From NCBI RefSeq assembly GCF_054482525.1, contig NZ_CM137006.1: a DNA stretch of 64,000 nt; one strand, written 5' to 3'. Of the stretch, positions 24,263-25,694 are shown piece after piece (the first letter of the stretch is position 1; each line of letters starts with the position of its first letter). The notes under the pieces were generated by a model. It did not search any database, had not been told where the DNA came from, and worked only from the letters and a program-made list of their open reading frames with translations. The position numbers were made by a program, and so were the translations under genes.

Positions 24263-24313
24263 TGAACTGCACCCCAAATGTTGGACATAATCTGACATCT
24301 GAAGGTGCAGTTT

Positions 24314-24835
24314 ATGAAACATTCATTTGAAGTAAAACTTGCCGCTGTAAATCACTACCTGGCTGGTCATGCAGGCATCATTTCTACGGCAAAACTCTTT
24401 CAACTTTCTCACACCAGCCTCTCACACTGGATTAATCTTTTTCTTCTTCACGGTCCTCGGGCACTGGATTGCAGACACAAGCGTAGCTATTCTCCTGAAG
24501 ATAAACTTTGCGTGGTTCTTTATGCTCTCGGGCATTCTGAGTCTCTACCCCGGGTAGCTGCCCGGTTTAACATTCCCAGCCACAACACGGTTAAAAACTG
24601 GATAAAAGGCTACCGCAAATCTGGTAATGAGGCCTTTATCAGGCGCAGGAAGGAGAAAAGCATGACCCGTTCTGATGATACCCATGAAAACGAGGCAAAC
24701 ATGACGCCGGAAGAGATGAAGAATGAGCTGCGTTATCTTCGCGCAGAAAATGCATATCTGAAAGCCATGCAGGAGCATCTCCTGGAAAAAAAGCGCCAGG
24801 AGCTGGAGAAAAAACGAAAGTCATCCGGAGCCTGA
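24314..24835 (+). CDS. IS3-family transposase OrfA (helix-turn-helix and leucine-zipper part)
   Basis: ORF-track 24305..24835 (GTG) with likely ATG at 24314 (MKHSFEVKL) preceded by AGGTG; ends just after the slippery heptamer A-AAA-AAG at 24787-24793. Confidence 0.85.
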   Translation: MKHSFEVKLAAVNHYLAGHAGIISTAKLFQLSHTSLSHWINLFLLHGPRALDCRHKRSYSPEDKLCVVLYALGHSESLPRVAARFNIPSHNTVKNWIKGYRKSGNEAFIRRRKEKSMTRSDDTHENEANMTPEEMKNELRYLRAENAYLKAMQEHLLEKKRQELEKKRKSSGA

Positions 24836-24939
24836 GGTGCGGACACTGCCAGTCTGACCTGTTAAAGGCTGCAGGGCTGGCCAGAAGCACGCTGTACTAC
24901 CAGCTGTCACTGCAGAAGGCTAAGGACAAGTATGCTGAT

Positions 24940-25662
24940 GTGAAACAGCTCATAGCCTCCATCTTCCATGAACACCGGGGATGTTATGGGTACCGGCGGA
25001 TCCATTGTGAGCTTCAGAAAAGAGGTCTTAAGTTCAGTGGCAAAACGGTGCGAAAACTGATGCAACAGCTCGGCCTGAAGTCTCCTGTGCGCCTGAAGAA
25101 ATACCGGTCTTACCGGGGAAATATGGGACTCGCTGCAGAAAATATCCTTCAGCGGCAGTTCAAAGCGGAAGCTCCCTGTGAGAAATGGGTGACAGATATC
25201 ACCGAATTCAGGGCTGGCGGACAAAAACTGTACCTGTCCCCGATACTTGATTTGTTTAACGGGGAAATCGTGGCGTGGGAAACGGCCTGCAGGCCTACAG
25301 AGGAGCTGGTGAAGCGGATGTTAAATAAGGGGCTGGAAAGCCTTGCTGAAGGGGAGAAACCGCTGCTCCACAGTGATCAAGGATGGCATTACCGGATAAA
25401 AAGTTATCAGTCCGCCCTGGCGGACAGAGGGTTAGTGCAGAGCATGTCGCGCAAGGGCAACTGCCTTGATAATGCGGTAATGGAGAACTTCTTTGGTCAC
25501 CTGAAAGAAGAAATGTACTATCGCCGGGACTACAGAAATGTAGAAGAGCTGGAAAATGCCGTTAACGAATACATAACTTACTGGAATCAAAAAAGAATAA
25601 AACTCAGTCTTGGGGGACTCAGTCCGGTAGAATACCGGACTGAGCATCAAAAAGCCGGTTAA
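24940..25662 (+). CDS. IS3-family transposase OrfB (DDE catalytic domain), probably expressed as an OrfAB fusion by -1 frameshift
   Basis: ORF-track 24940..25662 is in the -1 frame relative to orfA; that frame is open back to at least 24781, so it spans the A-AAA-AAG site. Confidence 0.85.
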   Translation: MKQLIASIFHEHRGCYGYRRIHCELQKRGLKFSGKTVRKLMQQLGLKSPVRLKKYRSYRGNMGLAAENILQRQFKAEAPCEKWVTDITEFRAGGQKLYLSPILDLFNGEIVAWETACRPTEELVKRMLNKGLESLAEGEKPLLHSDQGWHYRIKSYQSALADRGLVQSMSRKGNCLDNAVMENFFGHLKEEMYYRRDYRNVEELENAVNEYITYWNQKRIKLSLGGLSPVEYRTEHQKAG

Positions 25663-25694
25663 CTGAAACTGTCCAGGTTTTGGGGTTCAGTTCA

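What the first reader, a model, noticed from the sequence alone, without database searches (positions are those of the whole stretch)
24263..25694. Complete IS3-family element (IS1397-like) inserted precisely into a REP palindromic unit
This is the only clearly accessory DNA in the window. It is 1432 bp, bounded by 25-bp imperfect inverted repeats with TG...CA termini and flanked by a 4-bp direct repeat GTCA; removing the element restores an intact REP palindrome (GCCTGATAAGACGCGTCAAGCGTCGCATCCGGC). Size, family and REP-centre targeting match what I recall for IS1397, which is absent from K-12 and targets BIME palindromic units. It sits between the convergent 3' ends of ssuB and pepN, so it is probably neutral for both. 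Intact repeats and open transposase frames suggest a recent or still active copy.
Basis: partly seen in the sequence, partly recalled or inferred. Interest (0 to 1): 0.6.

Follow-up and report, generated by a model that had tools for sequence, protein, structure and literature searches.

The report
IS1397 copy inside a REP palindrome
This is an ordinary, intact copy of the already described E. coli insertion sequence IS1397, sitting where that element is known to land, in the centre of a REP palindrome between ssuB and pepN.

Summary
Window 24263-25694 is a 1432-bp element. It has 25-nt inverted ends (21/25 matched), TG...CA tips and a 4-bp GTCA target duplication.

It is 100% identical to copies that RefSeq annotates as 'IS3-like element IS1397 family transposase, programmed frameshift'. 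The two reading frames are open. A canonical A AAA AAG slippery site links them, and the DDE catalytic triad is intact.

Removing the element and one GTCA gives a sequence found at 625/625 identity, in one piece, in E. coli 19KM1831. That is a true empty site with an intact REP palindrome. Three other insertion sites I examined also split a REP at its centre, with 3-bp duplications.

- K-12 has no REP between ssuB and pepN, so the suggested K-12 comparison would not have shown the empty site.
- K-12 has no full copy, but it does carry a 65-bp IS1397 right-end remnant.
- The same palindrome is occupied in about 39 of 5426 complete genomes, with three different junctions. The site looks like a repeatedly hit target rather than the product of one recent event.

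Verdict: already known biology and a routine strain-specific insertion. Interest is low.

The parts
24263..25694 (+). Complete IS1397 (IS3 family), 1432 bp
   Evidence: 100% identity over 1432 bp to copies annotated 'IS3-like element IS1397 family transposase' in many E. coli genomes. The identical DNA is annotated this way at this same locus in PCN033.
24263..24287 (+). Left terminal inverted repeat (IRL), begins 5'-TG
   Evidence: Inverted-repeat pair I1, 25 nt, 84% complementary. Single occurrence in the window, 0 expected by chance.
25670..25694 (+). Right terminal inverted repeat (IRR), ends CA-3'
   Evidence: pair I1. The same end is found in the other copies examined.
24259..24262 (.). 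Target-site duplication, left copy (GTCA)
   Evidence: The empty site in 19KM1831 has a single GTCA.
25695..25698 (.). Target-site duplication, right copy (GTCA)
24314..24835 (+). orfA (173 aa from ATG 24314), DNA-binding part with two helix-turn-helix domains
   Evidence: ORF list. Pfam HTH_28 twice, E = 7e-7 and 1.5e-6. The PGAP coding sequence in the identical PCN033 DNA starts at the corresponding position.
24787..24793 (+). Slippery heptamer A AAA AAG in the orfA frame: the site of the programmed -1 frameshift that makes the OrfAB transposase
   Evidence: Read from the sequence. The frame arithmetic was done by me. The -1 frame is open from 24727. RefSeq notes 'programmed frameshift' on the identical DNA.
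24793..25662 (+). orfB (-1 frame), catalytic DDE integrase-like part
   Evidence: NCBIfam NF033516 IS3 family transposase, 329.8 bits against a cut-off of 160. Pfam HTH_21, rve, rve_2. D295, D355, E391 with spacings of 60 and 36, and K at E+7.
24260..24317 (+). Predicted RNA hairpin in which the tip of IRL pairs with the Shine-Dalgarno/AUG region of orfA
   Evidence: Inverted repeat I8, 14 nt, 93% complementary. Fold of -29.7 kcal/mol, z = -5.55, and -23.9 kcal/mol without the flank bases. The function is inferred, not tested.
24243..24262 (.). Left half of the interrupted REP / palindromic unit
   Evidence: It matches the intact unit at 24091-24125 (families D2 and I11/I12).
25695..25714 (.). 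Right half of the interrupted REP / palindromic unit (GCCGGATGCGACGC on the - strand)
   Evidence: Exact REP motif match at 25700-25713 on the - strand. Empty site.
24047..24242 (.). Rest of the REP cluster (BIME): one half unit and three full palindromic units in alternating orientation, including an internal 152-bp-spaced duplication
   Evidence: Repeat families D1, D2, D7 and I5, I11, I16. Motif matches. Rfam naRNA4, a REP-derived RNA family, at 24092-24169 on the - strand, 62.6 bits against a gathering score of 59.5. The flank query hits a median of 29 places per E. coli genome.

Best explanation
Window 24263-25694 is a full-length and apparently functional copy of insertion sequence IS1397 (IS3 family). 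It transposed into the central loop of a REP palindromic unit, the one closest to the 3' end of pepN in a REP cluster (BIME) between ssuB and pepN. Shown here: the boundaries, the 4-bp target duplication, the exact empty site, the intact transposase frames and catalytic residues, and centre-of-REP insertion at four different loci. Inferred from established IS3-family biology (IS911, IS2, IS3, IS150): OrfA is made by normal translation, and the OrfAB transposase by -1 ribosomal slippage at A AAA AAG (24787-24793). OrfAB copies the element out as a circle with abutted ends and pastes it into a new target, cutting the target with a 3- or 4-nt stagger. The published work on IS1397 attributes the choice of REP units to the transposase itself (title of Wilde et al. 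2003, as cited in PMC1525189). A hairpin that pairs the tip of IRL with the orfA ribosome-binding site probably prevents read-through transcripts from ssuB from being translated into transposase; this step is inferred. The window's copy, with its GTCA duplication and an IS sequence identical to copies elsewhere, was probably inserted separately from the TCA-duplication copies found at the same REP in other strains.
For: Identity: 1432/1432 matches to copies annotated IS1397, full-length copies in 1707 of 5426 complete E. coli genomes, and 7605 of 7612 matching places on chromosomes. The same locus is annotated this way in PCN033. Family features: IR pair, NF033516 above its cut-off, HTH_28 twice plus HTH_21 plus rve, the DDE triad, and a slippery heptamer in the right frame. 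Clean insertion: empty site at 625/625 identity in one piece. REP targeting: the caiF-caiE, cysE-trmL and mpl-yjgA copies each split a REP at its centre with 3-bp duplications TGG, AAT and TGA. In the mpl-yjgA copy the cut falls at the same place in the same REP type as in the window, read on the other strand. The CFT073 copy does the same (supplementary file 13 of PMC1525189). The literature states that IS1397 inserts specifically into REPs/PUs (PMC1525189, PMC3184786). Recent activity: the caiF-caiE copy in PCN033 is identical to the window copy. The empty-site strain differs from the window at only 10 of 20,316 positions to the right of the site, while the strains with the 3-bp junction differ at about 250.
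Against: Nothing contradicts the identification. Four gaps remain. ISfinder could not be queried, so identity to the type sequence rests on RefSeq naming and on shared behaviour. The primary IS1397 papers are not in the held library. Transposition activity of this copy, the frameshift and the 5' hairpin function are inferred, not measured. No sigma-70-like promoter was detected in the element by the simple scan. The difference between the 4-bp and 3-bp junctions could in principle be a 1-bp indel after a single insertion.
Confidence: 0.95

Rival explanations
1. One old insertion at this REP, inherited vertically by all of the roughly 39 carriers. The 3-bp and 4-bp junctions would differ by a later 1-bp indel. 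The window's IS sequence would have been homogenised by gene conversion from other copies. The empty site in 19KM1831 would come from precise excision.
For: About 39 genomes carry an IS1397 in the same REP in the same orientation. The 560 bp on each side are identical in the window, ST70 and strain 1190. The IS copies at this site are mosaics: a cluster of shared differences at IS positions 1035-1165 suggests recombination between IS variants.
Against: It needs three separate rare events: an indel outside any homopolymer, gene conversion, and precise excision across a 3-4 bp repeat. The empty-site strain is much closer to the window over the 20 kb to the right than the 3-bp-junction strains are. 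Other IS1397 copies show that both 3-bp and 4-bp duplications arise.
Confidence: 0.25
2. A dead relic: the copy looks intact but can no longer move, for example because of a disabling substitution or because the 4 mismatches in the inverted repeats matter.
For: No activity assay was possible. No promoter-like site was found by the consensus scan.
Against: The sequence is identical to copies at several different loci in many strains, up to 40 places per genome. That pattern is what a currently transposing sequence type produces. The frames, the slippery site and the DDE residues are all intact. Weak resident promoters are normal for insertion sequences (established knowledge).
Confidence: 0.05
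3. Not an insertion into a REP: the flanking half-palindromes and the GTCA repeat are coincidental, or the element belongs to a different IS3-family member such as ISKpn1.
For: None beyond the fact that ISfinder was not available.
Against: An exact uninterrupted empty site exists. The restored sequence matches the REP motif and an intact neighbouring unit. The element is 100% identical to E. coli copies named IS1397.
Confidence: 0.01

Closest known systems
IS1397 of Escherichia coli (IS3 family; Bachellier et al. 1997, Clement et al. 1999, Wilde et al. 2001-2003, as cited in PMC1525189)
   Same: The name RefSeq gives to identical DNA, the length I recall for it (1432 bp, from memory), the IS3-type organisation, insertion into the centre of REP palindromic units of BIMEs with 3-4 bp duplications, and no full copy in K-12.
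   Different: Nothing found. As far as I could check, the ssuB-pepN site is simply one more occupied REP.
ISKpn1 of Klebsiella pneumoniae (IS3 family)
   Same: A related IS3-family element that also targets palindromic units (PMC1525189).
   Different: It prefers the K. pneumoniae type of palindromic unit and is a different element (title of Wilde et al. 2003). The window element is 100% identical to the E. coli IS1397 copies.
IS621 of E. coli (IS110 family)
   Same: It also inserts specifically in E. coli REP sequences (PMC3184786).
   Different: It belongs to an unrelated family, with a DEDD-type recombinase and no terminal inverted repeats of the IS3 type. It inserts at the 3' side of the REP, outside the palindrome arms, not in the centre.
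IS911 / IS150 / IS3 (IS3-family paradigms)
   Same: Two frames in phases 0 and -1, an A6G-type slippery site, an OrfAB DDE transposase, TG...CA ends and a 3-4 bp duplication. Copy-out/paste-in through a circle is assumed by analogy.
   Different: These elements show no REP specificity.

Membership tests
IS3 family | Length of about 1.2-1.55 kb with terminal inverted repeats of 20-40 bp ending 5'-TG...CA-3' | tested here: met
   1432 bp, 25-nt inverted repeats matched at 21/25, TG/CA tips.
IS3 family | Two consecutive overlapping frames (0 and -1) joined by programmed -1 frameshifting at an A AAA AAG-type heptamer | tested here: met
   orfA 24314-24835. The -1 frame is open from 24727 to 25662. 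The heptamer lies at 24787-24793 in the orfA frame. RefSeq notes 'programmed frameshift'. The frameshifting itself was not measured.
IS3 family | OrfB with an rve-type DDE catalytic core, DD(35)E plus K/R seven residues after E | tested here: met
   Pfam rve E = 7e-21. NF033516 at 329.8 bits against a cut-off of 160. D295, D355, E391, with K at E+7.
IS3 family | Target duplication of 3-4 bp | tested here: met
   GTCA in the window. TGG, AAT and TGA at three other loci. Single copy in the empty site.
IS1397 (the specific element) | At least about 90% nucleotide or 95% amino-acid identity to the ISfinder type sequence | not testable with these tools
   ISfinder is not available. Indirect support: 100% identity to DNA whose transposase RefSeq names 'IS3-like element IS1397 family transposase'.
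IS1397 (the specific element) | Inserts specifically in the central part of E. coli palindromic units (REP) of BIMEs | tested here: met
   4 of 4 distinct loci examined split a REP at its centre. The CFT073 example in the supplement of PMC1525189 does the same. Only 7 of 7612 matching places lie on plasmids.
REP / palindromic unit within a BIME | Imperfect GC-rich palindrome of about 35-40 bp with the GCC(G/T)GATGCG(A/G)CG...CTTATC(A/C)GGCCTAC consensus, extragenic, clustered in alternating orientation and repeated many times per genome | tested here: met
   The restored unit folds at -17.1 kcal/mol, z = -3.9. Motif matches at 4 positions, all in this spacer, against 0.19 expected. Alternating units. 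Rfam naRNA4 above its gathering score on the neighbouring units. The flank query hits a median of 29 places per genome.

The most novel reading that the evidence does not exclude
The pepN-proximal REP unit is a natural hot spot that IS1397 has hit independently at least twice, possibly three times. On one and the same local haplotype (identical for 560 bp on each side) there are empty sites, insertions with a 3-bp TCA duplication and insertions with a 4-bp GTCA duplication. A third junction occurs on a diverged haplotype. If so, complete-genome collections could be used to measure the target choice and rate of IS1397 in nature, REP by REP.
Probability: 0.55. Interest if true: 0.2.

Novelty: already known. 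Interest (0 to 1): 0.1.

Why it matters
It matters little beyond annotation. The finding is a correct identification of a described insertion sequence behaving as described. It is a useful strain marker: this junction type is present in 3 of 5426 complete genomes, and the REP is occupied in about 39. It also illustrates that REP clusters are polymorphic landing pads. The insertion destroys the REP hairpin 17 nt downstream of the pepN stop codon, which could alter the 3'-end stability of pepN mRNA. That was not tested and there is no reason to expect a strong phenotype.

Tried and rejected
Rejected: K-12 has a 42-bp ssuB-pepN spacer with an ordinary hairpin and no REP.

(2) Reading the primary IS1397 papers (PMC94167, PMC169884, PMC95333, PMC135288). 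They are not held. I relied on secondary papers and on the titles of the primary ones.

(3) Promoter and terminator consensus scan of 24000-25800. No promoter-like site and one trivial terminator-like site, fewer than in shuffles, so it is uninformative.

(4) Looking for a frameshift-stimulating structure downstream of the slippery site. The fold of 24785-24880 is not better than shuffles (z = -1.5), so no claim is made.

(5) Rfam scan. The only hit above threshold is the REP-derived naRNA4 family on the neighbouring REP units, and nothing lies inside the IS.

(6) Several of the first hits I fetched to sample insertion sites turned out to be the same cysE-trmL site. Only three additional distinct sites were obtained.

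Full report
**1. The observation**

- It begins TGAACTGCACCCCAAATGTTGGACA and ends TGTCCAGGTTTTGGGGTTCAGTTCA. This is a 25-nt inverted repeat with 21 of 25 positions complementary (pair I1).
- GTCA precedes it at 24259-24262 and follows it at 25695-25698.
- The left end occurs once in the 64-kb window, with none expected by chance.
- ssuB ends at 24045 on the + strand and pepN ends at 25731 on the - strand. The element therefore lies between convergent 3' ends, 36 bp from the pepN stop codon.

**2. What it is**

- A megablast of the 1432 bp against 5426 complete E. coli genomes gives 100% full-length matches in many strains. All of them are annotated 'IS3-like element IS1397 family transposase'.
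- Full-length copies occur in 1707 genomes. 7605 of the 7612 matching places are chromosomal.
- The window itself is identical over 2601 bp to E. coli PCN033.
- orfA (24314-24835) has two HTH_28 domains. The -1 frame is open from 24727 to 25662 and has HTH_21 and rve domains.
- The orfB part scores 329.8 bits on NCBIfam NF033516 (IS3 family transposase), against a cut-off of 160.
- In the orfA frame the codons GAA AAA AAG place the canonical heptamer A AAA AAG at 24787-24793 (read).
- The fused 449-aa protein has D295, D355 and E391, with spacings of 60 and 36, and a lysine seven residues after E.
- All the defining features of the IS3 family are met.

**3. A clean insertion into a REP**

- Deleting the element and one GTCA gives a 625-bp test sequence. 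It is found at 625/625 identity, as one aligned piece, in E. coli 19KM1831 (sequence shown).
- The restored unit, GGCCTGATAAGACGCGTCAAGCGTCGCATCCGGC, folds as a hairpin of -17.1 kcal/mol, z = -3.9.
- On the - strand it reads GCCGGATGCGACGCTTGACGCGTCTTATCAGGCC. This is the REP / palindromic-unit consensus of the type with a CGACGC arm. The type name Z2 is from memory.
- It is the last unit of a cluster of units in alternating orientation. The REP motif matches four times in the window, all in this spacer, against 0.19 expected.
- The neighbouring pair of units scores above the gathering threshold of Rfam naRNA4, a REP-derived RNA family.
- The flank query hits a median of 29 places per genome, as expected for a dispersed repeat.

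**4. Target specificity, tested on other copies**

Copies identical to the window's were fetched from other loci. Three further distinct sites were obtained.

| Site | Left junction | Right junction | Duplication |
|---|---|---|---|
| caiF-caiE | gccggatgcgatgcTGG | TGGcgcatcttatccggcctac | TGG |
| cysE-trmL | gccggatgcgatgtAAT | AATcatctatccggcatac | AAT |
| mpl-yjgA | gcctgatgcgacgctTGA | TGAtgcgtcttatcaggcctac | TGA |

- Each insertion splits a REP at its centre with a 3-bp duplication.
- The mpl-yjgA target is the same REP type as in the window and is cut at the same place. The IS lies in the opposite orientation relative to the REP, so both orientations are used.
- The CFT073 copy described by Tobes and Pareja splits TGCCGGATGCGGCGTG|AACGCCTTATCCGGCCTAC.
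- The literature summarises IS1397 as an IS3-family element that is experimentally active and specific for REP units of BIMEs (PMC1525189, PMC3184786).

**5. Mechanism**

- Shown: the structure, the target, the duplication, and intact coding capacity.
- Inferred from the IS3-family paradigms: OrfA is made by normal translation and OrfAB by -1 slippage. The element is copied out as a circle and pasted in with a 3-4 nt staggered cut in the REP loop.
- The tip of IRL (with 3 flank bases in this copy) pairs with GGTGCAGTTTATGA, which covers the orfA ribosome-binding site and AUG. The fold is -29.7 kcal/mol, z = -5.55, or -23.9 kcal/mol without the flank bases.
- By analogy with IS10 and IS50 (from memory), this would block translation of transcripts entering from ssuB. 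It is an inference.
- No stimulatory structure after the slippery site stood out (z = -1.5), and no consensus promoter was found.

**6.

(a) K-12 cannot serve as the empty site. Its ssuB-pepN spacer is 42 bp with a simple hairpin, and homology with the window breaks at 24021, inside the last 8 codons of ssuB.

(b) K-12 lacks a full IS1397 but keeps a 65-bp right-end remnant (95.4% identical) still joined to half a REP, beside yhhI/ISEc1. About half of all genomes show only this remnant.

(c) The same REP is occupied in about 39 genomes, with three junction types:

| Junction | Genomes | IS differences from the window |
|---|---|---|
| GTCA\|IS\|GTCAAG | 3, including the window's strain | none |
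| ...GTCA\|IS\|TCAAG (3-bp duplication) | about 31 | 4-14 |
| GTCA\|IS\|GTCAGC, on a diverged haplotype | about 5 | 12-22 |

- The 560 bp on either side are identical in the window, in two 3-bp-junction strains and in the empty-site strain.
- Over the 20 kb to the right, the empty-site strain differs from the window at 10 positions and the 3-bp-junction strains at about 250.
- The simplest reading is at least two independent insertions into one REP, which is a hot spot. A single old insertion followed by a junction indel, gene conversion and precise excision is possible but needs more steps.

(d) Relative to K-12, the only sequence in the window that K-12 lacks is 24022-25728, so 'the only accessory DNA in the window' holds.

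**7. Verdict**

This is a correctly recognised, already described mobile element in its described kind of target. It adds a strain marker and a small population-level illustration of REP targeting, and nothing mechanistically new. Novelty: already known. Interest: 0.1.

Noticed in passing
L011 1501-1565 (E. coli K-12 MG1655, between yhhI/ISEc1 and yhhJ): K-12 and roughly 1,780 other complete genomes carry a 65-bp remnant of the IS1397 right end (95.4% identical). It is still joined to the right half of a REP (TAAACGCCTTATCCGGCCTA), directly after the ISEc1 transposase gene yhhI. An ancestral IS1397 was apparently truncated there, so 'absent from K-12' is true only for full copies.
   Followed up: partly
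window 24259-24262 / 25695-25698, compared with L015, L016, L017, L018: The same REP next to pepN carries IS1397 in about 39 genomes with three different junctions: a 4-bp GTCA duplication, a 3-bp TCA duplication, and GTCA on a REP allele lacking one A. The IS copies at this site are mosaics, with a shared cluster of differences at IS positions 1035-1165, which suggests recombination between IS1397 variants.
   Followed up: partly
window 24022-24262: The whole REP cluster between ssuB and pepN is absent from K-12, which has a 42-bp spacer with an ordinary hairpin. Homology breaks inside ssuB, so the last 8 codons differ ([10 protein letters not shown] versus ESETRLRKQG) while the protein length stays at 255 aa.
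   Followed up: partly
window 24063-24110 and 24215-24262; intact unit at 24091-24125: The REP cluster contains an internal direct duplication (48 nt, 96% identical, 152 bp apart). A near-identical palindromic unit with the same central GTCA lies 152 bp upstream of the occupied one and is unoccupied.
   Followed up: no
window about 34457-34467 (aspC-gloC spacer): K-12 has a 163-bp insert here that the window lacks. It consists of two REP units separated by an AT-rich linker (BIME-1/RIP-like) and is bounded by a direct repeat, GCTGAAAAGCGGGCT. This is a second REP-cluster presence/absence polymorphism in the window.
   Followed up: partly
window 24092-24169 (- strand): Rfam naRNA4 (RF02564, nucleoid-associated noncoding RNA 4) matches a pair of REP units at 62.6 bits, above the gathering score of 59.5. 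The family model evidently recognises generic REP pairs, so such hits should not be read as a specific sRNA gene.
   Followed up: no
window 24260-24317 (+ strand): A strong predicted hairpin (z = -5.5) pairs the outermost bases of the left inverted repeat with the orfA Shine-Dalgarno/AUG region. In this copy three flank bases (TCA) lengthen the helix from 11 to 14 pairs, so the strength of the proposed read-through protection would depend on the insertion site.
   Followed up: partly
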